Shown piece after piece: positions 26,675 to 43,674 of a stretch of DNA of 64,000 bases. Within the stretch, counting starts at the first letter, position 1; each line of letters starts with the position of its first letter. The DNA is from Candidatus Omnitrophota bacterium (lineage in GTDB: Bacteria > Omnitrophota > Gorgyraeia > Tantalellales > Tantalellaceae), in assembly GCA_015231405.1 (NCBI GenBank), contig JADGBR010000014.1:3555-67554 (forward strand). The letters run 5' to 3'. The position numbers and the translations under genes are program-made. The notes under the pieces are model-generated. The model worked only from the letters and a program-made list of their open reading frames with translations, did not search any database and was not told where the DNA came from.

Positions 26675-26703
26675 TATAATTTACTCCCGTTTTGTATTAA
26701 TGT

Positions 26704-27247: not shown

Positions 27248-28198
27248 ATGGCAAGGCCATTACGCATAGAGTACCCGGGGGCTTTATATCATGTCACATC
27301 CCGTGGCAATGAACGAAAGAACATTTTAATTACTGACGATGATAAATCCGTTTTTCTTGATATTCTGACAACTGCGGCCAATCGGTTCAAGATCGTATTA
27401 CATGCTTATTGCTTAATGACCAACCATTATCATTTTCTCATTGAAACAGCAAAAGCCAACTTAAGCAAATGCATGCAGTATATCAATTCTTCATATACAA
27501 CCTATTTCAACCGGGACAGGAAAAGATCAGGGCATCTTTTTCAGGGAAGATATGGAGCATTGCTTGTTGAGGAAGAAAGCTATTTGATAAAATTATCTCA
27601 ATATATACATTTGAACCCAATAAGAGCAAAGTTAGCACGTCATCCCGCTGATTACAAATGGAGCAGTTATAGATTTTATAAGCATTGCGAGCCCGGCAAG
27701 CCTGATTTTCTCGATCTGCAAAAGACCTTAGGGTATTTCAATGATGACCGTGGATTATACGCCGAATATATTGAGGAGGCTATACAGTCTAAAATAGTGG
27801 ATTTTTTACCGGAAGCTTTTGCCGGCTTGATATTGGGCAGCCAGGATTTTATCGACCAAATTAAAAAGAAATATGTGGACAAAAGAAAGAATCCGAGGGA
27901 CCTCCCTTCGCTCCGGAAGATAAACAAGACGGTCATTTGCCCTGATAAAATAATTGAAATAATCAACGCCAACTCGAAGGATATCCAAAATAAATATCGT
28001 ATAAAATTACTGGTTCTTTTCCTGAGGAAATATACAGATTTGACTTTGGCCGAGATCTCTAAAACCATAGGTACCGGAAAAACACCACCGGCTATCAGCA
28101 ATATATTCTATAGATTGGATAATGACCGAAACAAGAATGCCCATCTCAACGAACTGATAAATATTCTAGAAACAGAAATGTGTAAAGATGAGGTCTGA
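27248..28198 (+). CDS. HUH (Y1) transposase of the IS200/RayT (COG1943) family with a long C-terminal extension
   Basis: MARPLRIEYPGALYHVTSRGNERKNIL ... CLMTNHYHFLIET (HuH motif HYH) ... catalytic Tyr region. 316 aa, longer than minimal TnpA. No obvious terminal hairpins identified. Confidence 0.7.
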   Translation: MARPLRIEYPGALYHVTSRGNERKNILITDDDKSVFLDILTTAANRFKIVLHAYCLMTNHYHFLIETAKANLSKCMQYINSSYTTYFNRDRKRSGHLFQGRYGALLVEEESYLIKLSQYIHLNPIRAKLARHPADYKWSSYRFYKHCEPGKPDFLDLQKTLGYFNDDRGLYAEYIEEAIQSKIVDFLPEAFAGLILGSQDFIDQIKKKYVDKRKNPRDLPSLRKINKTVICPDKIIEIINANSKDIQNKYRIKLLVLFLRKYTDLTLAEISKTIGTGKTPPAISNIFYRLDNDRNKNAHLNELINILETEMCKDEV

Positions 28199-28424
28199 CC
28201 CCATTACGGACCCCATTACGACCCATCATTTTTACTCTATCAACTCCAAAAAAAATACTTATCACTCTTTATTATCCTAACAGAATAGGCAAAAAATTTT
28301 TGTTGCTTACTGCTTCAGATGTTTTTGATTCATTTTTGTCTTTCTACTCCTTTGCAATTATTCATCTAGTGCAAAAATGAGGTTTGACCCTCTTACTTCT
28401 ACAGCAGCGTCATGTGCAACTGTT

Positions 28425-28886
28425 CTATAGTCCTTTCAACATTTCTTCGCTTCTCTTTCTTGTGTACTCAACCAGCTTTTCTCTATTCGCAAAATAGTCT
28501 GAAGCTTTAAAAAGACTTAGTATTTTGGGGAAATACTTTGTTGCCAATACGGAATAATTTTCCAACTGCTTACGTTGTCTTTCTCCATAATCCTCAATTC
28601 CTTCATCAAACTCACATCTTTTCAAATCATTTTTATCAATACCCAAATATTCAAATAATAGTTTTAACCCAAATGTACTTGATTTCATCTGAATCGAACT
28701 AATTCCTATTAATATTTCACCTCTATCGGTATTAATATTTACATATATGTTATTATTTTTATAAAGAGTGCAGGAATTCCCAAAATTTTCTTTATCGACT
28801 GCATAAGACACAAATTCAAAATTGTATTTTTTAAATATATCAGAAAAATATTTGTTAATTTCATCTTTTAAAATAAAATCTGACAT
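28425..28886 (-). CDS. Putative immunity protein for the adjacent polymorphic-toxin C-terminal tip
   Basis: 153-aa cytoplasmic ORF beginning 15 bp after the stop of the giant toxin gene, on the same strand. It lies in the same AT-rich segment as the toxin tip. No recognised family. Confidence 0.55.
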   Translation of the reverse strand: MSDFILKDEINKYFSDIFKKYNFEFVSYAVDKENFGNSCTLYKNNNIYVNINTDRGEILIGISSIQMKSSTFGLKLLFEYLGIDKNDLKRCEFDEGIEDYGERQRKQLENYSVLATKYFPKILSLFKASDYFANREKLVEYTRKRSEEMLKGL

Positions 28887-28900
28887 AAATTCCCCTTTTG

Positions 28901-31900
28901 TTACTTAATTAACCAGAAATAATTTTTCCCTTCTCGCATTACAATTTTATATTCTTTACTAAGCAAGTAATCAATTTCTTTTCGCAGATATTTACCAGCT
29001 AAAGCATAAGGTGTAGTGACATAAAACGCACGGGTTTTTAACATCGCTCTATCTAAGAACTTTCTGTTCATCTCCCAAAGTTCATCTTCATTCATTATTT
29101 TAACAAATTTCTTCCATATTTTATCAGGAATACAAAAATAATTTGCATTTATTCTTTTTGCAACTTCTATATATTTATATTTACCACTATTTATCCAAAT
29201 CCCGTAATTACTGCCCAGAACAGTAATATCTTTCCCAATATTTCTATATGATTTTAGCCCATTTCCGGCTGCTTTTATAGCATTTAATGGCACCACTGTT
29301 CCAACTGCTAATAATGATAAAGCTGCTTCATCTCTCTTTCCTCTGGATAAATAAATTAAACCATTTATTGCGTCAATTGTATCACCAACTCCCGGAACAA
29401 CTCCAGCCCAATCTAAATATGACTGCATTACGTCAAATGAACTGTCAAATATTGCTTCATTAATGCCACCGGCGTTAAATGACACATAACCGATTTTATA
29501 ATTAGCAGGCGATAAATACCCTTCCGATGTTAATATGCTTTCGGCTGACTCATAGCTATTATTAAAAACATCTTCCGGCTTAACTGATACTCCGTTTATT
29601 GTTAATTCATAATCCTCCCCTGCCAGCCTGTTGATCTCGGCAATCATTCCATCTTCCGTCAAGATGACCTTATCGTTTATCTTTACTTCAACACCTTTGC
29701 TAATGGCAAGCTTAGCGCTTTCGATGAGCGATACCCTTCCCGTCGCGTCCATCATCGAATCCCAGGACGAACCGAACATTTCGCTGAAGGCGTAGTTGTC
29801 GCCGTCTACTTTCAGGTCGACGATTTTGCCGGTATTCGGATCGTAGACTGTTGTGTAATCGATGAATTGGCCGGCATCGTAGGATAATTCTGATTCCGTT
29901 ATTTCCAGGATTTGATAATTGGCATCATAGAGAGTTACCGTGCCGTCTTCGCTCGTTACTCTTGTGTTGCCGTTATCCAGGCACTCGACTTTCGTGGATG
30001 TATAGCTATTAATGCCTTTCGTTATTTCCGTTTTTGTTATTTTCCCGGCATCTGTCTCTACTATATTCATCGTTGTAGCGTTATACGTAAAAACAGCCTT
30101 GTTGCCGGTATTAATGTCGATTAAGGTTATTTGTTTTGTGCCGTCGGAGAGGGTTTTCTCGCTTTCGACGGCTCCTTGGTATTTATCCCGTAATTTGTTT
30201 AATTCGGCATTTATATTTTCATAGTGTATTTCACGTATTGCTATTTCATTCTGCATGTACTGCCTTGTCCCATCTAAACCGGCGCCTATCACGCTCGATA
30301 CGGTCATCTGGAGCATATTGCTGTACCATTGTTCACCATATTTGTTTTCGAGCGCGTTCATAGTTTCCGTGGATATAACCTGTGAGGCTGTATTAAAGAA
30401 GACTTCAGTCGCGAACATGGCGGTCGAATTCAGAATTTTCATATCAAAAGCTGGGTTGGCGAAGGCGTTTACGGGCATTAGGGTGATGGCGGCGGCTAGG
30501 CCTATGCCTAGTTTACTTAGCCAGTTGTCTGATTTGGAGATCTGTTCCATGGCATAGTTTGAGATTCCGCTGGTTATCATGCCGCCGAGGTAGTTTCTGA
30601 CGGCGTCGCCTAGTAAGGCTTTTGGGGCGAACTCAGTACTGATCCAGGGGTTAAGGGTATTCTTTAACCAGTTTCCGGCGGATTGGAAACCTTCCGCGGC
30701 CTGGCGGCATAGGGTCATTACTCCGCCGATCGCTTTTTGGCCGATTGATATTAAATTGTCCGTAATGCCCAGAGTTATCTGGCCCAGGGTTCTTCCGACT
30801 GCGCTGAGACCAGTCCAAATTCCCTCCATCATCTGGCCTGCCATACCTGCGATCGGCGCGGCGACGAATGCCGTAGCGGCGGATAAGAATATTGACGCTA
30901 CTCCCATTCCCATTATTGTCATCGCCTGGCCGTATTGGCCGTAGCAGATGGCTGTGGCCATGTTTGTTACGGTGTTCATGATCGGGTATGCTAGGGTTCC
31001 GCCCGATATCACCGACATTACTGATCCCACCACCAACGCGCCGATCGCGCCGGCTACTCTTCCCCATTTGCCTTCCTGGGCGGCGTATTTGATGGCGTTG
31101 ATCATTTGGACTACGGGTTGGATGATGTTGGTTACTATTTTTTTGACGGCTTTTACTATGCCTTCGAAGATCTGGGTTACTTTTTTCCAGAGTTTGTCCC
31201 ACCAGCCGGCGGCTTTTATGTCTAGGAGTTGGGTGTCGGTTAGGCGGTTTTTGTAGTCGCTGCGGGCGGTGGAGAGGGTGGTGCCTTCGTAGTTTTTCTT
31301 GAATTCGGTTAGGGGTATTTGTTTGGTTTGTTCGATGTTGTTTATGTAGCTGTTGGTGACTTTGATGTGGGTTATGGTGCCGGTTGTGTCGCGGATTACT
31401 CCGGTTACGGTTAGGAAGTGGGTGCCGTTGTAATGGACTATTATTGGGATTGCTTCGTCGCCTTCGGCTCCTCGCAATGACGGGGCGTCGGCTCCTTGCA
31501 ATGACGAGGCTTGACGGATGAAATCATCAAATGTGTATTTTGAACCGTAAACGTCTAGGCCGTGTTTTTGGGATACTTTTTTTAGGGCGTACATGGTTAG
31601 GAGGAGCTGGCCTTGAGTCTCGGAGGTGATGGCGCCGGTGATTAGGTCGACGAAGATGAGTTGTTGTAACAGGTAGTTCATTATTGACAGAGATTGCTTC
31701 GTCGCTTCGCTCCTCGCAATGACGAGGGCGGCTTCGTTGGCTTGCAATGACGCGTATAACGCCTCGGCGGCGCTTTGGCCGAAGTGGTTGTCCTGGGTTT
31801 TTAGCCGGGTTATGATGATTTGGATGTCTTCTTTTGTTATGTTGACGAGGAGCGACGGGTCGATGTCGTAGCCGCGCTCTTTCAGATATGCCGGCTTATC

Positions 31901-34900
31901 GGAGGCGGCGAGGTAATCGGCGAGGATGCCGGTCGAGGTGCCTGCTTCGGTTTCGGTATAGAGCGAATTTATTATCACGGTGATCTCGGCGCGGCGTTTC
32001 GCGTATTCGCTTGCCGGGTCGGACGCGTTACGGATGTGTTCGCGTTCGGACTCAAGCGTTAAATTGTTCGAACGCATATGCGCGAGGGTTTCGGTCAGTT
32101 CCTCGTCTGTCGCTTCCCTGCCTAACTCTTCGCGGTATATTTCGGAAATGTATTTCTTGTCGTTCCTGCCCTTGGCGGCGGTATAGGCGGATACGGCGTT
32201 ATTGTATCCTTCTTTTATGAGAGATATCCCGGCACTGAGGGCGGCTGTAAGAACCGCTCCGGCGGATAAAGCGACATTGTAACAAGTAAGCATACCGGAT
32301 AAACGGGCGGCACGCTCTAGCGCTAGTGTTTGTCCTCCCGTATCTTTAGGGCCGTTCTTGTACTCGGTGAGGTTCTTTATATAATCCCTTACAAAGTTCG
32401 TGTAACCCGTTTTCCTCCATTCACTCACGCAGAAGGTGAGCTCATCGCTCGCAGGCGCGCGATACAACATAGCGGCAAAATAATCCTTTACGCGCGAAAC
32501 GACGGCTTCTTCGTCCCATGACTTGCCGTTATTCATGAATACCGTGTCGCTCCCGTCCACTTTCACTTTTTCTATGTTATTCCACCTGTCGCGCGTGTAT
32601 TCGTACGAGTAGTTCCTGCCGTCCTCGTTATAAAGAGTAATGTTCCCAAGAGCGTCATACCTCATGTAATAGTCTTTCGTGTCCTTCCCGGAAACATCCA
32701 CATCCATGCCCGCGAGATTGCCGTTCGGGTGGTAAGTATAGCTGTATTTTTTCCTTGTGGCGTCTAGGGCTTTGAATTCGCGCTGGACGACGACCGGCTG
32801 GCCCGTATCGGCAGGGCCTCGCGCGCTTAACTCGAATATCTCGGCATAGGCGTTATTATTATCGCCGTTCCAGGCCCGGGCAGTTGCCCTTACCCTTATA
32901 GCCGTGACATTCGCGAGCGTGCCGTGCCATGTACCGCTAAAACAGACATCGAACGCCCGGCAGCCCGAAGTCCTCGCGACGTCGACCCATACGGATGAAC
33001 CTGCCTGGAGGTATTGTACGTTCATGTCGTACGATTCGCCGCGGCCGCCTGAATCGGCGCTCACCCTCGTATTGTAATATATCTCGCTCAGCGTGACCGG
33101 CTGGGCGAACTCGTGCGTCGAGGTCACATCGGCGTCGGGACTGAAACTTTCGGACGAATATGCCGTGGTATCGTAACCGTCATAATCAAGCGACGGGTTC
33201 ACTCCGCCCGTGGATGTATGTTTCGTACCGTCCAGGAGTATCATGTCATTCAGTGGGTTCTCCCCGGGTACAGGTTTTTTATATACAGAATATGTCTCTT
33301 GGACATAATTCACGATTTTGGATACCGATGCGACAAAACCCGTATCATCCCTGGTATAGGCATATCTGGCTATGTACGGGTCGTCCAGCGCGTTTATGTC
33401 AGAGGAGCCCTTATTGCCGAGGAGGCTGAAATATCCCTGGCCTTTACTCGCTACCCATGTTTTGAACGTCATGCCGTTATACGTGTAGCCCGGAACGAGG
33501 AATAGATCCCTGGCTTCAACTGTTTCTTCCCAGAGCCTGCCGAGGATGTTCCTTTCAGCCAGGATGTCGCCTCCGGCTCCGTATACTTTTTCAAGGCTTG
33601 ATGCGCTCCCTGGATATACGATAGGGGTCACGACAGCTGACGATTCGTTCACGAGGAGCTCTTCCGTTAGGACGCCTTTCGGGTCGTACAGTTTCGCGGC
33701 GGCTCCGGTATAGGTCGATATCTCGTAACGCGACCTCGGGATACCGCTTGAGTCCGTATTTTCGTAAGAGATCATAGTTCCGGAAGGTCTATCCTTATCC
33801 GGATACGTATTATCCGCGTATTTGGCGAGATCAGCGTATAGCCTCGAGCCTGAGCCCTTCGCCCACGCGAGCATCGTATCCGTAGCGTAACCATTCGGCG
33901 GGTAAGTATCCGATGCCGTATCAAGGATCATCAATTCGTCGACGTTCATCTGGCGGTTCACTTTACCGTCCGAAGCGGCGCCGTAGACGGCTTCAAGTTT
34001 CACGAACCTGGCTTTCCGCGGCGATATAAGGTCCTCGACCCAGCCGGAATAGAGCATATCCGTCCTGTCGGTAGCCCCTTCCCAGTTAACGCCGTCCTCC
34101 GAAGTGAAAATCCGGTATTTATACGAGTTGCCGTCGTCCCTGAACTTTATCCTGAACTTGCCGATGTCCGTAAGGCCTCCAAGGTCAAGCCTGAAGTACG
34201 GGAGAACCGTGTCGTTATCCCAGCGGATAGAGGCGCTGCCGGCAGTGACGGAGTAATCCGTAAGATACGAAACGTTATCCGACCAGCTGGCGGAAACCGG
34301 GGTCACGGATGTCACCATATGGCCTTTAGAGCCTTTCTCGAAATATTCCTTTATGAGCGGAGAATTCCTGTTGGCGTAATCGCTGATATATCCGGCTATC
34401 CTGGGGTCCTCAAGGGCGCCCGTGAACCTGGCCCATTCGGAGACATCCTTACCGGAAAAATAGTTGTTCAACTGGCACTGGCTGTTCGGGTTGATGAAGA
34501 GCTTCTTTAGGTCAGGGCGTTCCTCCCATAAAAGCATGAGGGCGTTCTTTTCACTCACGGCCCTCCCGTATTTATCGAGGTCGCTGACCCTGACGGTCCC
34601 TGAAACCTTTTCCGTACGGTACACTTTCACTTCGTTCAGCTGCATCGCCGTCGTCCAGTATTTCTCATTGGCGTTCTCTATTCTGATGTACCTGGCGGCG
34701 ACAGGCGTACCGAAACTGTCTATGAACCAGTCATTATCGGTATTGAGGTCGGTCGTCTTTATCTTGATCCAGTTATCGGGAGCCTCATTCGTAGCGTAAT
34801 AAACGGTATAGGGATAATTGTACGGGCTTCTGAACGATAAGCCGAGCGCGCTCACATTATCCTGATCGGAGCCGTTCCCGGTAAGGTCCAGAATGATGGA

Positions 34901-37900: not shown

Positions 37901-40900
37901 GGTCGTATCATCGTACCGGTACGTCACCTCTTTTAGGAGTATGCCGCCGCCGCCTCCCGGCCGGAGGATCCTTTCGCCCGTTAGGACCAACGGGTCGGCG
38001 CCGGTATGGTCGTAATATGTGACTGTCCCGTCGGGCCTATCGGTCTCGATGAGCGTTTTTCCGTCAGGTGAATATTTCATGACGACGGTCGACGAAACGG
38101 CGTTACCGTCCTTATCGGTATATGATACGGTTTCAGTTGTTACGGTTGACGGTTCGACGTCTAAAGGCTCGTAAGTATACGTCCGCTTTACGCCGTATTT
38201 ATCAGTCTCGAGCGTCACGCGGCCAAGGATATCATAACCGTGATCGAGCGCGTAATTCACGCGATATACGCCGGTACTATCCTTCTCGGAATAAACCGAC
38301 TTTTTGGAAATTATATGACCGCCAGTGGTATCATAGGTGTATGTATAATCGATCCTGATCCCCGCGGGATCTATCTGGGCGGCGAGATCGCCAATATGTC
38401 CCGAAGACGAATCCGCGCCGTAATAAGAATAGCCCATACCGGGACGAGCCCCGTCACCGATCTCTATCAGCTGGCCGCGGTCGTTGAACTTTTTTGAGGT
38501 GGTTATCATTACCGGAGGAGCGCCTTCGGCACGCTGGGTGAGAATACTCCTCTCTTCCCGCAGGTATTCCAGCGGCGTCCCTTGGTTCTCATATGACGGG
38601 ACCATCTCTTTAATAAGCCCTTTTTCGGTATCTTCGTCATAGACAAGATAGCCCTTCGCGTCGTATTTTTTCACGGTAACGGTCTTTGTGCCATCAACGG
38701 TCTTTGTTTTTTCCGTAACGGTCTTAAGGGTGATAGCGCCTGTTTTATCCTTCAGATATGAGTATTCGGTCATAACGCCGGAAGGTTCCGTTACCATTGC
38801 CAAAAGTCCATCGGCTCCATATGACTCGCTCGTGACTTCCTCCTTCCCGCCGGCATCTAGCCGGGTAATAGCGCGCGAGATCATCGCGCCGTCGGAATCG
38901 TATGAAAAATCGGTTCTTTCCTCATCGGCCATGCCCTTATTGACGGTTATACTGATCTCGCGTCCGTCTTTGTCGTAAATAGTTTCCTTAGAGCCAAGGA
39001 ACGTTCCGTTCGAGCCTGTAACAGTTTCCTTCTCGGATAAAAGGCCGCCTTTCGCGTCGCGCGAATATGAGTAAGCGGTCACGTTGCCTGAGCTATCCGT
39101 ATACGACAGGGTATCACCCGTGGCCGGGTCGAAAACGGTAGTAACCGATGTCGTATACACTGAACCGACGATATCCGCCTCGGATGTTATTACCGTTTCG
39201 CTTCTGAGCCTGCCGATATTATCCCGCACGTAAAGATACGCATCCTTCTTCCCGGAAGGATAGTCTATTTCCGACACGCCGCCGCGGCCGTTATATTTGT
39301 ATGATGTCACAGATCCCGGACCTGAAGCCGTACGCTCGTTCTCTTCCGTAACATTGCCGTCAATGGCATAGAGAGTTTCATAGAACGTTATGGGATCCTC
39401 ACTGCCCGCTATTTCGGTATATTTGATCTCTTTCGTCACGCGGAGATATTCATCCCGCGTTATCCGGTCGTGCTCTATGACGGCCTTTACAGGGTTCCCG
39501 GCCGACTTATCCGCTCCCGTGGCGTAGACATTCGTCGTTTTGATAATCTCATCAACGTTACCGGACGTCGAATACGCGTAAGTTATAAGCGTAGTCACTT
39601 CACTCCCGGAATAAGTATCCGACTCGGACGACAAACTCCCGTCGCTATTATAAACATAATTCACCGTATTTCCGTACGGGTCCGTATGGCTTATGACTCT
39701 CTTCTTCGCGTCATATTCGGTTATTTCCGTAAAGTCCACGTCATTACCTGAAGCGTCCTTATCCTTTACCCTCTTTTCCGCGATGAACCCGCCGGGAAGG
39801 GTCGAGGTGGAGTAGGCGCAAGTGATGATCGGCGTTTCCGGCGACCCGTCACGAACTATAACGGGTCCGGTCGGGCCGTCGAGATAATGAGAAGGGACAT
39901 TGAAGCTTTCCGTGAGACGTCCTGAGCTGTCATACCGCTCGAGAGTCATCCTGCTTTTCTTTATGTCCAGGAAACGCTTTTCCATTACGGCTCCGTCGGC
40001 ATTTTTGTCATATTCATAGACGAACGGTTCTTCGGCGCCAGGGCCTAATTCACTTAGAATGTCACCGTTACTATCATATGTGTATGCCGCGGTTGAGCCG
40101 GCGACCGTTTCGGCATTATCTGCCTCACCACTCAGCAGTTTTCCAGTGCGGCTGACCACCTGTCCGTTCTTGTTATAACGGCTGATAACATAGTACTCTA
40201 CCGCTCCAGGACCCGTGACATGTTCTGTCCCGACAATAATATCCTCTTCGGTTGTGTAAGAGGCTGTTATGTACGGGGAAGAGAGATCCTCCAGGAGGTA
40301 TGATATACCACCGTCAACGATCGCCCCCGGGGCGTACCGGTAACTTTTAACAAGGCCGAGAGCTTCGTTATAGTGATCCGTTACTGTAACGACACCGCTC
40401 ACGGCATCCAGATATACTGATGAGATCATAGCGCCGTTATCATACGTATATTCATATAGACCCTGCAACCGGTTCGATACGGTATCCGAAACGATATTGC
40501 CGTACAGATCAAATTCACATACCCTGCCGAGAGAATAATCGGTATATCCCGACATTTTCCCGGAAGCGTTATACTCAGTATCAGAATACAGTTTGCCGTT
40601 CCGGAGATATAACTTCTCCAGGGATACCTTATCCGTACCGTCATGGTAGGAATAGATGACATATGACCCGTCGGACATAGTTTTTTGCGTCAGATAAGTG
40701 GCCGCGTCGTTGTAATAAGTTTCTATCGTGCCTGACGCAGCGTCGGATACGGACTGTATCCTCCCGTCCATGTCGTTGTAATAAGAGTATGTTTTAACCA
40801 GTACCGTACAATCCCCGTCGGAGTAGACCTGTTTGGTAAGTACCCTGCCGAATGTGTCGGCATTGTAGGTGTATTGGGAAGACAACTCGCCGCCCCGAGC

Positions 40901-43405
40901 CGCGGCGCGTTTCTCCTTCTCAACTCTCCCCATTCCCTGGCCGAGCCAGTTCTCGTTCAGGTAGCGGTAATAGATATTACCGGAAGCGTCCGGCAAGGCG
41001 AGGGCCATGGATTCGCGGTAATTGGCCGCGTCGTCGTAATAAGTATTCGTGAGTTTAAACTGTGTCATAGCGGTGTCCGCGTAGTCCTCCAGCTTGATCA
41101 TCCTCGACGGCGCTAAGGACGAATAATAAAACCTGGTCGCTATACACCCCGAGGTATCCGGGGCTGATCTTATGACAATATCCAAAGAACTCGCGGAATT
41201 ATTAAGATAGTGGTAATACACATACCCTCTTGTGTCAGCCGGGATATATGTCCTTGACGCTATCCGGCTGGCTGTATCATCGTAATAAGCCGCCGTCTCC
41301 TTGAGCATGGTCATCGCGGCATCCAAATAGAACTCCCGGCGTATGACCCTTGTCGGCGTCGTTCCCGAATAAAAGTATTTGTACGCCATATACCCGTCCG
41401 TATCCGCGGCCTGTCTCATGGCGTAATCGCACCGCGCATTGGCGTCGTTCATATAATGATAGAATACTGCCCCTCCTGCGTCCGGAGCGGCAAGGGCCAT
41501 TGATTCCCGGTAATTGGTGGCGTCATCGTAATAAGTGTTCGTAAGAGTAAGCTGCGTCATCGCGGCGTCCGCGTAGCTCTCCAGTTTTATCATCCTTGAG
41601 GGCGTGACGGACGAAAAATGATATTTCGTGGCTATGCATCCCGAGCTATCCGAAGCCGATCTTTTGGCAATATCCAGTGAACTCGCGGAATTATTAAGAT
41701 AGTGGTAATACAAATACCCTCTTGTGTCAGCGGAAGTATAGCTCCTTGATTCGATCCGGTTGGCCGTATCATCGTAATAGTTCGCTGTCTGCTTGAGTTG
41801 GGTTAACGCGGTGTCCGAATAGAACTCCAGGCGTATGACCCTTGCCGGAGTCGCAGCGGAATAAAAGTATTTGTACGCCATGTAACCGTCTATATCCGCA
41901 GACTGGCGCTTTGTCATATCCACTCTCCCGTACCCTTCGGAGTTCCAGTTCTCATTTATATAGTGATAATAAATATTCCCGGAGGCATCAGGCGACACTA
42001 AAGTTTTTGACTCCATCCAGTTACTGGCGTCGTTATAATAAGTCACCGCGGAAACGCTATCGGCTATCGAGCTGACTCGCCCCGCCGTGTCGTTGAAATA
42101 GATATATGTCCTTAGTAATCCCGTCCCTGCGGCACCTCTATAGGCCTTTATCGACTCTACTCGCCCGGCCGTATCGCCATAATAAGTGTATATATACGAT
42201 AGCGCGCCGTTCGCGGTCGCGGTCAGCCGTTGAGCCTTGTCTACCCTGCCGCCGCCTTGAGAATTCCAGTTCTCGTTCATCAAATGGTAATAAATGTACC
42301 CGGACGTATCAGGAGAAACAGATGTGATGAACTCGGTATATCCTGTAACGTCGTTATAATAGGTATATGTCCTTATCAGTGTCGTCCACGAGGTGTTAAT
42401 GTATGCCATCCTCGTCTTGAGCCTACCGGTGGCATCGGCATAATACGTGTAAGAATACGACAGTTCACCGTTATCGGCTGTGGAACGTTTCGCCTTGTCG
42501 ACCCTGCCAAAACCCTGTCCCAGCCAGTTCTCGTTGATATAGTGGTAATAAATATTCCCGTAAATGTCGGCAGCGGCCGACGTCTTGGATTCCACATAGC
42601 TCCCGGCATTATTGTAATACGTGTAAGTGGCGACCAGCGATCTCCAGCCCGCGTCCGAGTACGACTTTACCGTCGAGAGATACGCGGTCGAGGCGCTATA
42701 ATAGGTATATGTGTACGATAGTTCCCCGTTAATGCCCGTACGCCGGATACCTTTATCGAGCCTGTTCATTGTGTTGTTCGCGAAATGGCAGTAGTATAGC
42801 CCTGTCAAAGGGTCGAACTGGCTCCCGATGTATATTTTTGTGTCCTTCCGGTTATATGAATTGTTATAGTACGCGGTGTCGGCAAGCGCGTTCGTCCAGT
42901 TCTTATCGGTATACGATCTTTTTGTCTTGAGGCGGCCGCTCGCGTCGCTGAAGTATATATAGGTATCGGAAAGCTCGCCGTCAGGTGCCGCCGTATCCCT
43001 GTAAGATTTATCTACCCTGCCATACCCTCGATAGAGCCAGTTCTCATCCAAGAAATGGTAATATAAGTTGCCGTCAGTATCGGAGGCCGCAAGAAGTATG
43101 GATTGAACACGGCCGCTCGAGTAATAGGTTTTCGTTCCGGGAAGGTCCGTAAGTTTCTGCGTCTGGGGACTCTTCGGCACGGAAAAACTTTCGATAGCCT
43201 TTTTGGAATCCACCGCTGACTGTGCGGCGGACTCACTTGCCGTGATATTGTCCGTTGTAACCGACGGCGCAAGCTGATTTCCTGAGCCGGTGGGCACACC
43301 GTATGGATCTATCGCCGCCCATGCGACCTCGTGGAAAAAAAAGATCCCGGCAACTATCGCCGAGATCATCTTCAGTATCATTTCTTTTCTCTGCAAGGAA
43401 AACAT
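28901..43405 (-). CDS. Giant (4834 aa) Sec-signal RHS/YD-repeat polymorphic toxin with teneurin-like domain content and an unclassified C-terminal toxin tip
   Basis: Signal peptide MFSLQRKEMILKMISAIVAGIFFFHEVAWAA. About 14 long YYHY.NENW...GRVDK...YTYY repeats (about 38.3-43.1 kb). Dense RHS/YD repeats (YDAKKRVISHTDPYGNTVNYVYNSDGSL, YEYDKNADG, FSYDSDGAMIS; about 35.1-38.3 kb). Three discoidin/F5-8C-like domains (about 32.8-35.0 kb). Two DUF4214-like units (about 32.0-32.5 kb). A Gly/Ala/Met-rich hydrophobic module (about 30.4-31.2 kb). A PT-TG-like motif WAGVVPGVGDTIDAINGLIYLSRGKRDEA (about 29.29-29.41 kb). An AT-rich roughly 130-aa C-terminal tip (28904..29290). Confidence 0.9.
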   Translation of the reverse strand: MFSLQRKEMILKMISAIVAGIFFFHEVAWAAIDPYGVPTGSGNQLAPSVTTDNITASESAAQSAVDSKKAIESFSVPKSPQTQKLTDLPGTKTYYSSGRVQSILLAASDTDGNLYYHFLDENWLYRGYGRVDKSYRDTAAPDGELSDTYIYFSDASGRLKTKRSYTDKNWTNALADTAYYNNSYNRKDTKIYIGSQFDPLTGLYYCHFANNTMNRLDKGIRRTGINGELSYTYTYYSASTAYLSTVKSYSDAGWRSLVATYTYYNNAGSYVESKTSAAADIYGNIYYHYINENWLGQGFGRVDKAKRSTADNGELSYSYTYYADATGRLKTRMAYINTSWTTLIRTYTYYNDVTGYTEFITSVSPDTSGYIYYHLMNENWNSQGGGRVDKAQRLTATANGALSYIYTYYGDTAGRVESIKAYRGAAGTGLLRTYIYFNDTAGRVSSIADSVSAVTYYNDASNWMESKTLVSPDASGNIYYHYINENWNSEGYGRVDMTKRQSADIDGYMAYKYFYSAATPARVIRLEFYSDTALTQLKQTANYYDDTANRIESRSYTSADTRGYLYYHYLNNSASSLDIAKRSASDSSGCIATKYHFSSVTPSRMIKLESYADAAMTQLTLTNTYYDDATNYRESMALAAPDAGGAVFYHYMNDANARCDYAMRQAADTDGYMAYKYFYSGTTPTRVIRREFYLDAAMTMLKETAAYYDDTASRIASRTYIPADTRGYVYYHYLNNSASSLDIVIRSAPDTSGCIATRFYYSSLAPSRMIKLEDYADTAMTQFKLTNTYYDDAANYRESMALALPDASGNIYYRYLNENWLGQGMGRVEKEKRAAARGGELSSQYTYNADTFGRVLTKQVYSDGDCTVLVKTYSYYNDMDGRIQSVSDAASGTIETYYNDAATYLTQKTMSDGSYVIYSYHDGTDKVSLEKLYLRNGKLYSDTEYNASGKMSGYTDYSLGRVCEFDLYGNIVSDTVSNRLQGLYEYTYDNGAMISSVYLDAVSGVVTVTDHYNEALGLVKSYRYAPGAIVDGGISYLLEDLSSPYITASYTTEEDIIVGTEHVTGPGAVEYYVISRYNKNGQVVSRTGKLLSGEADNAETVAGSTAAYTYDSNGDILSELGPGAEEPFVYEYDKNADGAVMEKRFLDIKKSRMTLERYDSSGRLTESFNVPSHYLDGPTGPVIVRDGSPETPIITCAYSTSTLPGGFIAEKRVKDKDASGNDVDFTEITEYDAKKRVISHTDPYGNTVNYVYNSDGSLSSESDTYSGSEVTTLITYAYSTSGNVDEIIKTTNVYATGADKSAGNPVKAVIEHDRITRDEYLRVTKEIKYTEIAGSEDPITFYETLYAIDGNVTEENERTASGPGSVTSYKYNGRGGVSEIDYPSGKKDAYLYVRDNIGRLRSETVITSEADIVGSVYTTSVTTVFDPATGDTLSYTDSSGNVTAYSYSRDAKGGLLSEKETVTGSNGTFLGSKETIYDKDGREISITVNKGMADEERTDFSYDSDGAMISRAITRLDAGGKEEVTSESYGADGLLAMVTEPSGVMTEYSYLKDKTGAITLKTVTEKTKTVDGTKTVTVKKYDAKGYLVYDEDTEKGLIKEMVPSYENQGTPLEYLREERSILTQRAEGAPPVMITTSKKFNDRGQLIEIGDGARPGMGYSYYGADSSSGHIGDLAAQIDPAGIRIDYTYTYDTTGGHIISKKSVYSEKDSTGVYRVNYALDHGYDILGRVTLETDKYGVKRTYTYEPLDVEPSTVTTETVSYTDKDGNAVSSTVVMKYSPDGKTLIETDRPDGTVTYYDHTGADPLVLTGERILRPGGGGGILLKEVTYRYDDTTGRIKESIATDTRGTDNVSDDIVKVTSYDISNTGKNIKETSVYAPGVYSPDGKAQVREIYHYKTSGALDRVETMGLSGTTYKTDIESFYAVYNGKVLVKTRTTGEGREDFNYDGDGNLTDSVFTSGLYSARTEKRYAANGDVINVTMKGMDGDTVTDITYVRNAIGNITGKTETVRYRPYNLAGGNTDTILAVKSYTYYGSEDSDKAIYPEATASGAVKTMTSGGKTYSYEYTYDAEGVLTITKETVSWDEGASRYTAVSLKKSDTKGDIIASIDTEGVYSEYEYSTDAENAMGGKVQTEKSYYGLIDAKDPSKGYTRYRRSSFDGSLPEGLSESRTVRVYDFDNDLVSLTEANDPANVSDDIVTRYTYVKDELGRVKAGYETVNGRAGVKVSEYDEKGDLVSETDRNGMKVTYSYERDGVLGYIKKTVAGNVLYPGFSQTTGYDTRGDVISVTGSNGIRKTYTFIRDASGKITARKEDTTSSAALSGSGILMNYTETSEYDANGDITGFTDKNGIKRTTRYIYDRYGNEAKTITEVIFVSGTSGKITVTDYNPDGTESRVTEMNDPASSEDDITRTYSYKYDQITGVLSEKTETDIRYSGVTVYRYDNSGDVTIVVSPNGVTLSYAVKKDDKGGTIERYTKTSLSPDAVEKEEFDTEGNRISLTDANGHIATYLNTYDGKSDLIKATEYRTGPSGLYTSVVNEYDSFGRIKLSVDKNGTPSAYEYSVTPWGAVTSSREYDPRGTVGGGYDGSVLRVFDAVTSDLISMTDRLGLTTVYEYGRSPEHGGITLKTERAPLGGTTVYGMDKYGRIISVTDTYDKTVTVSLEFDTCGNMTKRLLSWQETIDGQGVQDYVEEEYYSIEGDLVKRVDRLKNVYTYIAEKNGKGDLARLVTVDHGRNNDKMDISSVDYDASGRIISRTTPRGDVTYYAYQFGSGGEVKKIYESVAPTGEKIDALKPVEIKNISVRNCYFGVDPWQLVDDKYDNWQNFGWEYSMPTDRTSIILDLTGNGSDQDNVSALGLSFRSPYNYPYTVYYATNEAPDNWIKIKTTDLNTDNDWFIDSFGTPVAARYIRIENANEKYWTTAMQLNEVKVYRTEKVSGTVRVSDLDKYGRAVSEKNALMLLWEERPDLKKLFINPNSQCQLNNYFSGKDVSEWARFTGALEDPRIAGYISDYANRNSPLIKEYFEKGSKGHMVTSVTPVSASWSDNVSYLTDYSVTAGSASIRWDNDTVLPYFRLDLGGLTDIGKFRIKFRDDGNSYKYRIFTSEDGVNWEGATDRTDMLYSGWVEDLISPRKARFVKLEAVYGAASDGKVNRQMNVDELMILDTASDTYPPNGYATDTMLAWAKGSGSRLYADLAKYADNTYPDKDRPSGTMISYENTDSSGIPRSRYEISTYTGAAAKLYDPKGVLTEELLVNESSAVVTPIVYPGSASSLEKVYGAGGDILAERNILGRLWEETVEARDLFLVPGYTYNGMTFKTWVASKGQGYFSLLGNKGSSDINALDDPYIARYAYTRDDTGFVASVSKIVNYVQETYSVYKKPVPGENPLNDMILLDGTKHTSTGGVNPSLDYDGYDTTAYSSESFSPDADVTSTHEFAQPVTLSEIYYNTRVSADSGGRGESYDMNVQYLQAGSSVWVDVARTSGCRAFDVCFSGTWHGTLANVTAIRVRATARAWNGDNNNAYAEIFELSARGPADTGQPVVVQREFKALDATRKKYSYTYHPNGNLAGMDVDVSGKDTKDYYMRYDALGNITLYNEDGRNYSYEYTRDRWNNIEKVKVDGSDTVFMNNGKSWDEEAVVSRVKDYFAAMLYRAPASDELTFCVSEWRKTGYTNFVRDYIKNLTEYKNGPKDTGGQTLALERAARLSGMLTCYNVALSAGAVLTAALSAGISLIKEGYNNAVSAYTAAKGRNDKKYISEIYREELGREATDEELTETLAHMRSNNLTLESEREHIRNASDPASEYAKRRAEITVIINSLYTETEAGTSTGILADYLAASDKPAYLKERGYDIDPSLLVNITKEDIQIIITRLKTQDNHFGQSAAEALYASLQANEAALVIARSEATKQSLSIMNYLLQQLIFVDLITGAITSETQGQLLLTMYALKKVSQKHGLDVYGSKYTFDDFIRQASSLQGADAPSLRGAEGDEAIPIIVHYNGTHFLTVTGVIRDTTGTITHIKVTNSYINNIEQTKQIPLTEFKKNYEGTTLSTARSDYKNRLTDTQLLDIKAAGWWDKLWKKVTQIFEGIVKAVKKIVTNIIQPVVQMINAIKYAAQEGKWGRVAGAIGALVVGSVMSVISGGTLAYPIMNTVTNMATAICYGQYGQAMTIMGMGVASIFLSAATAFVAAPIAGMAGQMMEGIWTGLSAVGRTLGQITLGITDNLISIGQKAIGGVMTLCRQAAEGFQSAGNWLKNTLNPWISTEFAPKALLGDAVRNYLGGMITSGISNYAMEQISKSDNWLSKLGIGLAAAITLMPVNAFANPAFDMKILNSTAMFATEVFFNTASQVISTETMNALENKYGEQWYSNMLQMTVSSVIGAGLDGTRQYMQNEIAIREIHYENINAELNKLRDKYQGAVESEKTLSDGTKQITLIDINTGNKAVFTYNATTMNIVETDAGKITKTEITKGINSYTSTKVECLDNGNTRVTSEDGTVTLYDANYQILEITESELSYDAGQFIDYTTVYDPNTGKIVDLKVDGDNYAFSEMFGSSWDSMMDATGRVSLIESAKLAISKGVEVKINDKVILTEDGMIAEINRLAGEDYELTINGVSVKPEDVFNNSYESAESILTSEGYLSPANYKIGYVSFNAGGINEAIFDSSFDVMQSYLDWAGVVPGVGDTIDAINGLIYLSRGKRDEAALSLLAVGTVVPLNAIKAAGNGLKSYRNIGKDITVLGSNYGIWINSGKYKYIEVAKRINANYFCIPDKIWKKFVKIMNEDELWEMNRKFLDRAMLKTRAFYVTTPYALAGKYLRKEIDYLLSKEYKIVMREGKNYFWLIK
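31441..31510. repeat. Short repeat element copy 1, in-frame inside the giant toxin ORF
   Basis: ttattgggattgcttcgtcgccttcggctcctcgcaatgacggggcgtcggctccttgcaatgacgagg. It shares gattgcttcgtcgc(c)ttcg(g)ctcctcgcaatgacg with 31691..31725 and 52269..52300. Confidence 0.65.
31681..31795. repeat. Short repeat element copy 2 (longest copy, about 110 bp), in-frame inside the giant toxin ORF
   Basis: ttattgacagagattgcttcgtcgcttcgctcctcgcaatgacgagggcggcttcgttggcttgcaatgacgcgtataacgcctcggcggcgctttggccgaagtggtt. Its halves match the intergenic copies at 52266..52302 and 24185..24240 respectively. Confidence 0.65.
41040..42000. repeat. Intragenic tandem duplication of about 480 bp x2 within the N-terminal repeat domain of the giant toxin gene
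   Basis: 41040..41520 and 41520..42000 align along their length. They share identical stretches such as actcgcggaattattaagatagtggtaataca and ggcaagggccat.gattc.cggtaattgg. Confidence 0.7.
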
Positions 43406-43640
43406 GGCTCCCCCCTTTATTTATTTTTTAATTATTCACAGATCTTCTAAATTCTCCTTTTTGTATTTTCAACAGGGTTATTTTATCACTTATTGTGCAT
43501 GCTTGTAAATAGCAAAAAAACCTGGTATTTTATCTCTAACTGTGATATACGCTGACCTACTAGTTCTTTCCTATGCAGCGGCGAGAGACTATTTTCCGAC
43601 AAACACTCGAGTGTTCCTTCTTGAAGCTGTCACGCATACG

Positions 43641-43674
43641 AAAAAAAAGCCCCGTCGGGTGACGGGGCTTTTTT
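43641..43674 (-). terminator. Rho-independent terminator (bidirectional) after the 2850-aa gene
   Basis: AAAAAAAA-GCCCCGTC-gggt-GACGGGGC-TTTTTT, 20 bp downstream of the stop at 43695. Confidence 0.7.

What the first reader, a model, noticed from the sequence alone, without database searches (positions are those of the whole stretch)
28425..43405. Giant Sec-dependent RHS/YD polymorphic toxin with teneurin-like domain content, plus a cognate immunity gene
A single 14.5-kb ORF (4834 aa) carries, in order:
- a cleavable-looking signal peptide;
- about 14 long YYHY/YTYY repeats;
- a dense RHS/YD-repeat shell region;
- three discoidin (F5/8-C)-like carbohydrate-binding domains;
- two DUF4214-like units;
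- a Gly/Ala/Met-rich hydrophobic module;
- a PT-TG-like pre-toxin motif;
- a short C-terminal tip.

A 153-aa cytoplasmic ORF starts 15 bp after the stop, in the canonical immunity position. The YD-shell plus discoidin plus C-terminal toxin arrangement, with a Sec signal and no obvious T6SS/T7SS/CDI markers, resembles WapA/teneurin-type toxins. It is unusually large and elaborated.
Basis: partly seen in the sequence, partly recalled or inferred. Interest (0 to 1): 0.8.

Follow-up and report, generated by a model that had tools for sequence, protein, structure and literature searches.

The report
Core-less RHS toxin with immunity gene
A 4834-residue secreted RHS/YD-repeat protein of an uncultured Omnitrophota bacterium ends in a swapped-in ~100-residue toxin domain from a widespread but uncurated family, with its matching immunity gene right behind it, yet it lacks the self-cleaving "RHS core" that normally releases such toxins.

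Summary
The two ORFs are real: 28901..43405(-) encodes 4834 aa and 28425..28886(-) encodes 153 aa. This is a polymorphic toxin with a cognate immunity gene.

The last ~100 aa belong to a conserved domain family with 458 relatives. The domain sits at the extreme C-terminus of RHS, PAAR-like, CDI, HINT, Tc and eCIS scaffolds. In 45-47 of 65 loci from at least 12 phyla, the gene immediately downstream is a homolog of the window's 153-aa ORF. A family HMM built without the window sequence recovers that ORF at E = 2.3e-19.

Tip and immunity gene lie in a 23-31% GC patch within a ~50% GC genome.

Several details fail:
- There are nine long N-terminal repeats, not about 14.
- Two discoidin domains have profile support, not three.
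- DUF4214 and Pfam PT-TG get no hit.
- No teneurin- or WapA-specific feature is present.
- There is no RHS core or PxxxxDPxGL autoprotease site, although most carriers of this tip have one ~211 aa from their end.

About 1200 orphan residues separate the last YD repeat from the end. They include a cysteine-free C39-like region and three marginal membrane helices. The tip's enzymatic activity is unassigned. Verdict: a new variant of a known kind, of moderate interest.

The parts
43480..43509 (-). Best promoter-like site upstream of the giant ORF (TTTACA-18-TAAAAT with an extended TG)
   Evidence: This is a consensus match only. A 14-bp terminator hairpin at 43643-43674 separates the gene from the upstream FecR-domain gene.
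43316..43405 (-). Start codon and signal-peptide-like N-terminus (aa 1-30, AWA|A)
   Evidence: Shine-Dalgarno AAAGGGGGGAG lies just upstream. Assessed by inspection and hydropathy; no dedicated predictor was run.
40715..43063 (-). Nine long repeat units of 82-107 aa (aa 115-897), each built of YD-like hairpin motifs (YYHY...GRVDK...GELSYxYTYY...GR...TYYND)
   Evidence: unit HMM: 9 full hits at E 1e-28 to 1e-40, plus 2 fragments. Pfam RHS_repeat does not hit this region. A 492-nt tandem duplication at 40986-41899 is 81% identical.
35036..40714 (-). Central RHS/YD-repeat region (aa 898-2790)
   Evidence: Pfam RHS_repeat and NCBIfam YD_repeat_2x hits at about aa 1231, 1672, 2229 and 2745. Tyr/Asp/Gly/Thr-rich throughout.
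34658..34933 (-). F5/8 type C (discoidin)-like domain, copy 1 (aa ~2825-2916), weak
   Evidence: E = 1.1e-5, 26 bits, below the curated cutoff of 28.2.
33983..34294 (-). F5/8 type C (discoidin) domain, copy 2 (aa 3038-3141)
   Evidence: F5_F8_type_C E = 1.5e-12 and F5_F8_type_C_2 E = 7e-8, both above cutoff.
32756..33208 (-).
   Evidence: No Pfam hit. No similarity to copies 1 or 2.
32486..32746 (-). Last YD repeats (aa 3554-3640). No RHS core follows them.
   Evidence: RHS_repeat E = 1.1e-4 and YD_repeat_2x E = 0.002. TIGR03696 absent at E <= 10. A local core HMM scores -23.9 bits.
31826..32485 (-).
   Evidence: No DUF4214 hit. Summed insertion free energy +1.5 kcal/mol. No homologs found.
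31226..31825 (-). C39-like region (aa 3861-4060), cysteine-free and so probably a pseudo-peptidase
   Evidence: Peptidase_C39 E = 0.001, 19.3 bits, below the cutoff of 22, covering profile positions 46-131 only. No Cys in aa 3840-4070. Single-sequence AF2 model unusable, pLDDT 40.9.
30416..31225 (-). Gly/Ala/Met-rich hydrophobic module (aa 4061-4330) with marginal membrane helices at aa 4117-4135 and 4164-4182
   Evidence: +2.4 and +1.0 kcal/mol, against +3.2 for the signal-peptide core. Nothing in aa 40-3690 is below +6.6.
29486..30208 (-). Beta-rich, weakly YD-like segment (aa 4400-4640)
   Evidence: RHS_repeat E = 0.7 only. By inspection.
29249..29449 (-). Pre-toxin module (aa 4653-4719; LDWAGVVPGVGDTIDAINGLIYLSRGK...). 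PT-TG-like in position, but a separate family. The GC drop and the similarity to other cassettes begin here.
   Evidence: found in 41 of the 150 best representatives, in front of varied C-terminal domains. Not Pfam PT-TG. GC profile.
28904..29248 (-). C-terminal toxin domain (aa 4720-4834) of an uncurated family. Invariant residues G4731, Y4745, W4764, N4780, F4783 and E4810 are all present.
   Evidence: AF2 model pLDDT 88.6, pTM 0.80. No Pfam, NCBIfam or PDB sequence match.
28425..28886 (-). Cognate immunity gene (153 aa, no signal peptide; conserved D..FGN...R(F).RDRG...W core)
   Evidence: Homologs lie immediately downstream of the tip in 45-47 of 65 loci. HMM built without the window: E = 2.3e-19. 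No Pfam family.

Best explanation
WHAT IT IS
The locus is a polymorphic toxin-immunity system of a Candidatus Omnitrophota bacterium, built on an atypical RHS/YD scaffold.

HOW IT PROBABLY WORKS (shown versus inferred)
- Export (inferred). The 4834-aa protein leaves the cytoplasm through Sec, using an N-terminal signal-peptide-like sequence.
- Surface and contact part (domains shown, function inferred). The first ~3600 aa comprise nine long YD-like units, a ~1900-aa RHS/YD region and one or two discoidin lectin domains. They form the extracellular part that contacts glycans on a target cell.
- Swapped cassette (shown). The last ~180 aa are a horizontally exchanged cassette: a pre-toxin module plus a ~100-aa toxin domain. 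It is accompanied by the downstream 153-aa cytoplasmic immunity protein.
- Action (inferred). The toxin acts in the target's cytoplasm. The producer is protected because the immunity protein binds the toxin.
- Release (inferred, non-canonical). There is no RHS core or aspartyl autoprotease, and the C39-like region has no cysteine. The ~1000 orphan residues with Gly/Ala-rich marginal membrane helices, which lie between the last YD repeat and the cassette, are the best candidate for a membrane-insertion or translocation module.
- Activity (not assigned). The leading guesses are an N-glycosidase of NAD+ or nucleotides, or a nuclease-like activity. Both rest on weak evidence.

The confidence of 0.8 refers to the identity as a polymorphic toxin with a cognate immunity gene on a core-less RHS/YD scaffold. 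The delivery and release steps are much less certain.
For: - The tip is a discrete domain with 458 relatives at E <= 1e-3 in an exhaustive search.
- In 112 of the best 150 hits it ends a median of 9 residues from the C-terminus, in proteins of 81-2458 aa.
- Its carriers include RHS_repeat proteins (15 of 60), DUF4280 (PAAR-like), DUF637 + PT-VENN (CDI), PT-HINT, SpvB/TcdB, eCIS_core and PT-TG.
- All six invariant residues of the family are kept in the window.
- The AF2 model is confident: pLDDT 88.6, pTM 0.80.
- In 65 loci from at least 12 phyla, nearly every tip is followed within about -26 to +27 nt by a 106-170-aa ORF.
- 45 of these ORFs, plus 2 found by the control, fall in one family with the window's 153-aa ORF. 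Direct phmmer gives E = 9.5e-11 and 1e-6. An HMM built without the window gives E = 2.3e-19. Among 528 control ORFs, the only hits were two more toxin-downstream ORFs.
- Tip subtypes co-vary with the downstream family: 54 of 57 nearest neighbours agree, against a permutation maximum of 47.
- GC falls to 0.23-0.31 over the tip and immunity gene, against ~0.50 elsewhere. The drop begins where similarity to other cassettes begins, near nt 29450.
- The immunity gene has its own RBS and starts 15 nt after the stop codon.
- RHS/YD and discoidin profiles are significant.
- Discoidin domains embedded among RHS repeats are a documented theme of polymorphic toxins (PMC3482391).
Against: - No toxicity or protection data exist.
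- No release mechanism is identifiable.
- No route across the outer membrane is evident in the window.
- The window's tip is divergent, and its single nearest neighbour pairs with the other downstream family.
- The signal peptide and membrane segments were judged by simple scales only.
- The hydrophobic segments could instead act as stop-transfer anchors, which would leave the tip in the producer's cytoplasm.
Confidence: 0.8

Rival explanations
1. Canonical Rhs/TcC-type cocoon. The YD repeats form a closed shell that encapsulates the C-terminal toxin, and the toxin is released by the RHS-core aspartyl autoprotease at PxxxxDPxGL.
For: - Significant RHS/YD repeats are present.
- The same tip is carried by canonical RHS-core proteins in most other genomes: 34 of 57 locus ORFs, and 37 representatives with the motif.
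Against: - NCBIfam TIGR03696 is absent even at E <= 10 on the isolated segment.
- No PxxxxDPxG motif occurs anywhere in the protein.
- A core HMM built from this tip's own carriers gives 95 domain hits among the homologs but scores -23.9 bits on the giant with filters off.
- There is no N-terminal PVxxxxGE motif.
- About 1200 aa follow the last YD repeat, whereas in canonical carriers the motif lies 120-418 aa (median 211) from the C-terminus.
Confidence: 0.04
2. Membrane-anchored variant. The three marginal hydrophobic segments (aa 3712-3730, 4117-4135, 4164-4182) act as stop-transfer anchors. The ~3700-aa N-terminal part is displayed outside the cell. The C39-like region and the C-terminal ~650 aa, including the toxin, stay on the cytoplasmic side bound to the immunity protein until a contact-triggered step exports or releases them.
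For: - The insertion free energies of the three segments (+1.0 to +2.4 kcal/mol) are more favourable than that of the signal-peptide core (+3.2). They are also unique in the protein.
- C39 and C39-like domains of ABC exporters are cytoplasmic (established knowledge).
- The immunity protein has no signal peptide.
- Omnitrophota long proteins are reported to have mostly extracellular bodies with C-terminal transmembrane and intracellular parts (10.1101/2023.11.21.568195).
Against: - The segments are Gly/Ala-rich and only marginally hydrophobic.
- No dedicated topology predictor was run.
- No mechanism is known that would move a cytoplasmic C-terminal toxin outwards afterwards.
- The same pre-toxin + tip cassette is ordinary cargo of canonical RHS proteins elsewhere: P0005 and P0007 have core motifs at positions 187 and 82, followed by the pre-toxin module and the tip.
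Confidence: 0.15
3. The protein is primarily an adhesin or predation-related 'long protein' of Omnitrophota. The tip and the small ORF are a decaying or non-functional remnant acquired with a mobile island.
For: - Omnitrophota are rich in very long extracellular proteins with discoidin and beta-helical repeats.
- The cassette lies in a low-GC island next to an IS200-like transposase and a TA pair.
- The RHS core is missing.
- NCBI annotates the protein only as a discoidin domain-containing protein.
Against: - The tip is in frame and full length, and it keeps every invariant residue of its family.
- The immunity ORF is intact, has an RBS and scores 64.6 bits against its family HMM.
- No frameshifts or orphan fragments were found nearby.
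Confidence: 0.08
4. Assembly chimera. The low-GC 3' end, from another organism, was joined to an Omnitrophota RHS gene during metagenome assembly.
For: - The source is a MAG contig of 69,968 bp.
- GC shifts sharply near the 3' end of the ORF.
- No second copy of the protein exists in the databases; it is a singleton cluster.
Against: - The low-GC stretch is an internal island (~24000-29500) with ~50% GC DNA on both sides, so two chimeric joins would be needed.
- The frame stays open and reads straight into a bona fide pre-toxin module, tip and immunity gene in the canonical order.
- A GC or codon discontinuity at the toxin end is the normal signature of Rhs C-terminal regions (PMC8636562).
- Internal DNA repeats are only 81% identical.
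Confidence: 0.03

Closest known systems
Rhs / TcC-type YD-repeat polymorphic toxins (e.g. T6SS Rhs effectors, Photorhabdus Rhs1, Tse15)
   Same: - YD/RHS repeats are present.
- The variable C-terminal toxin shows a GC discontinuity.
- The immunity gene lies immediately downstream.
- The very same tip family is usually carried by canonical RHS-core proteins.
   Different: - No RHS core or PxxxxDPxGL aspartyl autoprotease.
- No N-terminal cleavage motif.
- No PAAR, VgrG or Eag partners.
- A Sec-type signal instead.
- A YD region 2-3 times longer than a single cocoon.
- About 1200 aa after the last YD repeat, against about 200 aa of cargo.
WapA (Sec-dependent wall-associated RHS toxins of Bacillota)
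   Same: - N-terminal Sec signal.
- RHS repeats.
- C-terminal toxin plus downstream immunity gene.
- No dedicated secretion-system marker.
   Different: - No wall-binding repeats were detected.
- No RHS core.
- The host is apparently diderm (outer-membrane beta-barrel and AsmA-like genes in the window), so Sec alone does not reach the cell surface.
Teneurins (metazoan YD-shell proteins)
   Same: - YD repeats.
- The C-terminal domain is probably not enclosed by, or cleaved off by, an RHS aspartyl protease.
   Different: - No TEN_YD-shell, NHL, TTR, FN-plug, EGF, ABD or Tox-GHH hit.
- To my knowledge discoidin is not a teneurin domain (not tested here).
- This protein carries an apparently active, immunity-paired bacterial toxin tip.
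Polymorphic toxins with PT-TG pre-toxin modules (Zhang et al. 2012 classification)
   Same: - A short Gly-rich conserved module lies directly in front of varied C-terminal toxin domains.
- A few carriers of this tip have a genuine Pfam PT-TG in the same position (P0023).
   Different: - The window's module and its 41-member family (LDWAG.PG.GD.IDAIN...Y.RGK) are not recognised by Pfam PT-TG.
- The family HMM does not hit P0023's PT-TG.
Very long extracellular proteins of Omnitrophota (West-Roberts et al. 2023 preprint; 2026 complete-genome preprint)
   Same: - Same phylum.
- Very long secreted protein with discoidin domains and RHS-like beta-rich repeats.
- Hydrophobic segments near the C-terminus.
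- Mobile elements nearby.
   Different: - Those papers mention RHS only as a structural analogy, or not at all. A term search found no mention of an immunity gene.
- Here genuine RHS_repeat profile hits are combined with a polymorphic toxin cassette.
- At 4834 aa this protein is much shorter than the giants they describe.

Membership tests
Polymorphic toxin system (Zhang/Aravind sense) | C-terminal toxin domain that recurs at the C-terminus of proteins with unrelated N-terminal delivery scaffolds | tested here: met
   There are 458 relatives. The domain ends a median of 9 aa from the C-terminus. Carriers include RHS, PAAR-like, CDI, HINT, Tc and eCIS scaffolds.
Polymorphic toxin system (Zhang/Aravind sense) | Immunity gene immediately downstream that co-occurs with the toxin domain across genomes | tested here: met
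   In 45-47 of 65 loci the downstream ORF is in the window ORF's family. HMM built without the window: E = 2.3e-19. The control of 528 ORFs was clean.
Polymorphic toxin system (Zhang/Aravind sense) | Compositional discontinuity marking a recombined toxin-immunity cassette | tested here: met
   GC is 0.23-0.31 over the tip and immunity gene, against ~0.50 elsewhere. The drop begins at the pre-toxin module.
Polymorphic toxin system (Zhang/Aravind sense) | N-terminal secretion or trafficking determinant | tested here: inconclusive
   The N-terminus looks like a signal peptide by inspection and hydropathy. No SignalP was run, and no outer-membrane export route was identified.
Polymorphic toxin system (Zhang/Aravind sense) | The tip is toxic and the downstream protein neutralises it | not testable with these tools
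   This needs a co-expression assay.
Rhs / TcC cocoon toxins | YD repeats (YDxxGRL(I/T)) | tested here: met
   Pfam RHS_repeat E = 8.6e-13 and NCBIfam YD_repeat_2x E = 9.7e-6.
Rhs / TcC cocoon toxins | RHS-associated core domain with the PxxxxDPxGL aspartyl autoprotease motif, which demarcates the toxin | tested here: not met
   - TIGR03696 is absent at E <= 10.
- No such motif occurs in the protein.
- A local core HMM scores -23.9 bits on the giant, against 95 positive-control domain hits.
Rhs / TcC cocoon toxins | N-terminal plug or autocleavage motif (PVxxxxGE) | tested here: not met
   The regex search is negative. No DUF6531 or similar domain was found. A regex is a weak test.
Rhs / TcC cocoon toxins | Cargo short enough to be encapsulated (about 150-400 aa after the core) | tested here: not met
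   About 1200 aa follow the last YD repeat. In other carriers of this tip the PxxxxDPxG motif lies 120-418 aa from the C-terminus, median 211 aa.
Rhs / TcC cocoon toxins | Closed beta-cocoon three-dimensional structure | not tested
   No usable alignment was available for structure prediction of the YD region.
WapA-type toxins | Monoderm host and cell-wall-binding N-terminal domains | tested here: not met
   No wall-binding domains were detected. The window encodes an outer-membrane-type beta-barrel protein (BBP2_2, ending ...QFKY) and an AsmA-like protein.
Teneurin-type YD proteins | TEN_YD-shell, NHL propeller, TTR/FN-plug, ABD and Tox-GHH domains | tested here: not met
   None of these families was hit in whole-protein or segment scans.
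Pfam PT-TG (PF14449) | Match to the family profile | tested here: not met
   No hit at E <= 10 on the isolated 86-aa segment. None of its 37 closest relatives hits PT-TG.
Pfam DUF4214 (PF13946) | Match to the family profile | tested here: not met
   No hit at E <= 10 on aa 3640-3830. The resemblance is by eye only.
F5/8 type C (discoidin) | Match to the family profile above the curated cutoff | tested here: met
   - Copy at aa 3038-3141: met.
- Copy at aa 2825-2916: sub-threshold, 26 bits.
- Proposed third copy: not met.
Peptidase C39 | Papain-like fold with a catalytic Cys-His pair | tested here: not met
   The profile hit is sub-threshold (19.3 bits against 22) and lacks the N-terminal catalytic part. 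There is no cysteine anywhere in aa 3840-4070. The fold could not be tested (pLDDT 40.9).
TIR / nucleoside 2-deoxyribosyltransferase / ADP-ribosyl-cyclase assemblage (candidate fold of the tip) | Significant structural or profile similarity, and a catalytic Glu in an equivalent position | tested here: inconclusive
   - Foldseek finds nothing at E <= 0.001.
- Invariant E4810 is a candidate catalytic residue only.

The most novel reading that the evidence does not exclude
The protein could represent a previously undescribed way of delivering a polymorphic toxin. A Sec-exported, extended YD/RHS beta-structure with lectin domains would bring an ultra-small Omnitrophota cell into contact with its host or prey. 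An orphan ~1000-aa C-terminal apparatus would then replace the RHS-core autoprotease as the device that inserts into the target membrane and passes the toxin through. That apparatus comprises a cysteine-free C39-like domain, Gly/Ala-zipper helices and YD-like hairpins. The toxin itself would have a new enzymatic fold with no solved relative.
Probability: 0.2. Interest if true: 0.7.

Novelty: new variant of a known kind. Interest (0 to 1): 0.5.

Why it matters
It matters for three reasons:
- The analysis defines a widespread toxin-immunity gene pair that no curated family covers. It has 458 clusters at 50% identity, spans at least 12 phyla, and comes with two alternative immunity families. The pair is ready for a simple co-expression test.
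- An RHS-repeat scaffold can carry a standard polymorphic cassette without the core autoprotease that is considered the hallmark of Rhs toxins. That raises the question of how such a toxin is released and translocated.
- To my knowledge this is the first explicit toxin-immunity cassette pointed out on one of the long surface proteins of Omnitrophota, a phylum of suspected epibionts and predators. It gives a concrete candidate effector for that lifestyle. In the database the protein is annotated only as 'discoidin domain-containing protein'.

Tried and rejected
- Word-index homolog searches found nothing for the tip or for aa 3640-4640. The giant protein itself appears not to be indexed there. 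The immunity ORF found only itself.
- A metagenome scan with the C39-like plus hydrophobic region found no relative.
- The look-up of encoding contigs for the immunity ORF found nothing on record.
- PDB sequence searches with the tip, the tip profile and the 1007-aa pre-toxin region gave nothing meaningful.
- Foldseek of the tip against PDB and BFVD gave nothing at E <= 0.001. AFDB50 was unavailable.
- The single-sequence AF2 model of the C39-like region was unusable, pLDDT 40.9.
- My self-bootstrapped YD-hairpin HMM was seeded too strictly (2 seeds) and was abandoned.
- No orphan toxin or immunity fragments were found in 23001-28430.
- The signature motif KFLDR(AI) was not found in the one supplementary file held as text for Nachmias et al., nor in the paper library. 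There is no literature on DUF7026.
- The idea that the C39-like domain is the releasing peptidase was rejected because the region has no cysteine.
- The idea that the upstream FecR-domain giant and the TPR/beta-barrel gene form one operon with the toxin was weakened by a strong terminator hairpin between them.
Full report
OBSERVATION

The window contains a continuous ORF at 28901..43405 on the minus strand, encoding 4834 aa. A second ORF at 28425..28886 on the same strand encodes 153 aa. The small ORF's ATG lies 15 nt after the giant's TAA and is preceded by AAGGGGA. The giant's ATG is preceded by AAAGGGGGGAG.

Both proteins are in NCBI, from one 69,968-bp contig of a Candidatus Omnitrophica MAG. 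They are MBF0216749.1, 'discoidin domain-containing protein', and MBF0216748.1, 'hypothetical protein'. Each is a singleton at 90% identity.

An intrinsic-terminator hairpin with a 14-bp stem and T-runs on both strands lies at 43643-43674, between the giant ORF and the upstream 2850-aa gene. The best minus-strand promoter-like site is at 43509-43480. The giant ORF and the small ORF therefore probably form their own transcription unit.

DOMAIN CONTENT OF THE GIANT PROTEIN

Whole-protein and overlapping-segment scans support these features:
- RHS_repeat (E = 8.6e-13) and YD_repeat_2x, with hits from about aa 1231 to 2766 and again at about 3583.
- One solid F5/8 type C domain at aa 3038-3141.
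- One sub-threshold F5/8 type C domain at aa ~2825-2916 (26 bits against a cutoff of 28.2).

DUF4214 and PT-TG give no hit even at E <= 10 on isolated segments.

The N-terminal repeats are nine units of 82-107 aa (aa 115-897) plus two fragments. They contain YD-like motifs, but Pfam RHS_repeat does not recognise them. Their HMM gives only insignificant echoes in the central YD region.

At DNA level the only long tandem repeat, 492 nt at 40986-41899, is 81% identical. That argues against a collapsed-repeat artefact.

THE MISSING RHS CORE

Canonical Rhs proteins separate the shell from the toxin with a PxxxxDPxGL aspartyl-protease core (PMC8636562). Four tests show that it is absent here:
- NCBIfam TIGR03696 is not hit, even at E <= 10 on the relevant segment.
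- The motif occurs nowhere in the protein.
- A core HMM built from the tip family's own RHS carriers gives 95 domain hits among those homologs. With filters off it scores -23.9 bits on the giant.
- The N-terminal PVxxxxGE cleavage motif is also absent.

In the other carriers the motif lies 120-418 aa from the C-terminus, with a median of 211 aa. Here about 1200 aa follow the last YD repeat.

THE ORPHAN ~1000 aa (aa ~3641-4652)

No relatives were found in the word-indexed protein database or in the metagenome collection. The region contains:
- A helical stretch.
- A sub-threshold Peptidase_C39 match (E = 0.001, 19.3 bits against a cutoff of 22) that covers only the C-terminal two-thirds of the profile. 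There is no cysteine between aa 3840 and 4070, so it cannot be an active cysteine peptidase. A single-sequence AF2 model was unusable.
- Three marginal membrane-type segments at aa 3712-3730, 4117-4135 and 4164-4182. Their summed insertion free energies are +1.0 to +2.4 kcal/mol, against +3.2 for the signal-peptide core. No other segment in aa 40-3690 is below +6.6.
- A beta-rich, weakly YD-like stretch at aa 4400-4640.

THE TIP

An exhaustive HMMER search with the last 218 aa found 458 proteins at E <= 1e-3, in two classes.

The first class matches query residues ~35-110. This is a pre-toxin module with consensus LDWAGLIPGxGDxIDAINAIIYFARGK, found in 41 of the best 150 hits. It lies in front of varied C-terminal domains such as Ntox50. 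Pfam PT-TG does not recognise it.

The second class matches query residues ~124-206. This ~100-aa domain always lies at the extreme C-terminus, a median of 9 residues from the end, in proteins of 81-2458 aa.

Carriers of the tip include RHS_repeat (15 of 60), DUF6531, TEN_YD-shell, DUF4280 (PAAR-like), DUF637 + PT-VENN, PT-HINT, SpvB/TcdB, eCIS_core and PT-TG. No Pfam family covers the tip itself.

The family has six invariant residues, and the window keeps all of them: G4731, Y4745, W4764, N4780, F4783 and E4810.

AF2 with a 34-sequence alignment gives a confident alpha/beta model (pLDDT 88.6, pTM 0.80). The evidence on its function is weak:
- Foldseek against PDB and BFVD finds nothing significant.
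- A permissive family-wide Pfam scan gives only a weak recurrent hit to DUF7026 (8 of 34 members, best E = 0.019) and one RAP-domain hit (E = 0.0011).

The biochemical activity is therefore unassigned. An NAD+/nucleotide N-glycosidase and a nuclease-like activity are hypotheses only.

THE IMMUNITY GENE

A degenerate-pattern scan of one genome per species found 65 loci encoding the tip, in at least 12 phyla. Almost every tip ORF is followed within about -26 to +27 nt by an ORF of 106-170 aa.

- 45 of these ORFs form one family with the window's 153-aa ORF. Direct phmmer gives E = 9.5e-11 and 1e-6, and jackhmmer recovers all 45.
- 16 loci carry a second, unrelated family.
- An HMM built without the window sequence recovers the window ORF at E = 2.3e-19.
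- Among 528 other 100-200-aa ORFs from the same loci, that HMM hits only two, and both also lie just downstream of a tip.
- Tip subtypes co-vary with the downstream family: 54 of 57 nearest neighbours agree, against a permutation mean of 33.6 and a maximum of 47.
- The window's own tip is divergent, and its single nearest neighbour pairs with the other family.
- The immunity family has no Pfam match and no signal peptide, which points to a cytoplasmic target.

THE CASSETTE

GC falls to 0.23-0.31 across about 28500-29400. It starts to drop near nt 29450-29700, where the pre-toxin module and the similarity to other cassettes begin.

The low-GC stretch continues to about 24000. It contains an IS200-like transposase, an ERCC4-type nuclease gene and a Gp49/HTH toxin-antitoxin pair, and then GC returns to ~0.50. 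It is therefore an internal island, not a chimeric contig end. No orphan toxin or immunity fragments were found in it.

CONTEXT

No T6SS, T7SS, CDI/TPS or T2SS markers occur in the window. Upstream lie a secreted 2850-aa FecR-domain protein and a TPR plus beta-barrel outer-membrane-type protein. A link between these and export of the toxin is speculative, given the terminator between them.

Zhang et al. (PMC3482391) already note discoidin domains embedded among RHS repeats in polymorphic toxins. The Omnitrophota long-protein papers mention RHS only as a structural analogy, or not at all, and a term search found no mention of an immunity gene.

INTERPRETATION

- Well supported (about 0.8): this is a polymorphic toxin with its cognate immunity gene, carried on an RHS/YD, lectin-bearing, Sec-type scaffold.
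- Tested and not met: membership in the canonical Rhs-core (cocoon plus autoprotease), WapA or teneurin classes.
- Inferred only: the mechanism of surface exposure, release and translocation. The orphan C-terminal region with its Gly/Ala-rich helices is the best candidate for a translocation or anchoring device.
- Unknown: the tip's enzymatic activity.

VERDICT

This is a new variant of a known kind, with interest about 0.5. It is more informative than the database annotation, it defines an uncurated cross-phylum toxin-immunity pair, and it shows an unusual core-less RHS architecture. The biology it implies is within what is expected of polymorphic toxin systems.

Noticed in passing
window 43695-52247 (-) and 52312-53838 (-): A 2850-aa secreted protein with an N-terminal FecR domain (Lsa33/LipL45-like) and a Gly/Tyr/Asp-rich body. 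Upstream of it lies a 508-aa TPR protein whose C-terminus looks like a BBP2_2 outer-membrane beta-barrel (ends ...QFKY). It may be a surface or outer-membrane pair. A terminator hairpin separates it from the toxin gene.
   Followed up: partly
window 6910-13173 (-) and 54071-58951 (-): Two very large proteins (2087 and 1626 aa) with PPDK_N ATP-binding domains. One also has GWD1 phosphohistidine and PEP-utilizer domains, and the other a response-regulator receiver. PPDK_N is listed among the recurrent domains of Omnitrophota giant proteins in the West-Roberts preprint.
   Followed up: no
window ~24000-29500: A low-GC island (0.35-0.42 against ~0.50). Besides the tip and immunity gene it contains an unusually long (316 aa) IS200-like Y1 transposase (27248-28198, +), an ERCC4/HhH nuclease ORF that starts at profile position 51 and may be truncated (25093-25623, -), and a Gp49-like/HTH toxin-antitoxin pair (24308-25010, -).
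   Followed up: partly
window 31464-31510: A 24-nt x 2 in-frame tandem duplication (91% match) inside the C39-like region, producing the repeated peptide ...SLQGADAPSLRGAE...
   Followed up: no
loci L001, L002, L029, L030, L033, L038, L039, L043, L044, L050, L051, L053-L056, L065 (ORF just downstream of the tip): A second family of ~116-145-aa ORFs, unrelated in sequence to the first, occupies the immunity position behind a distinct subclade of the same toxin domain. This suggests two alternative immunity solutions for one toxin fold.
   Followed up: partly
[not shown]
   Followed up: partly
protein P0010 (2693 aa; representative library): This protein contains six tandem copies of the pre-toxin (LDWAG...) module spaced ~111-221 aa apart. 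That is an odd architecture for a module that normally occurs once in front of a toxin.
   Followed up: no
window 43643-43674: A perfect 14-bp GC-rich hairpin flanked by A-runs and T-runs on both sides. It looks like a bidirectional intrinsic terminator.
   Followed up: no
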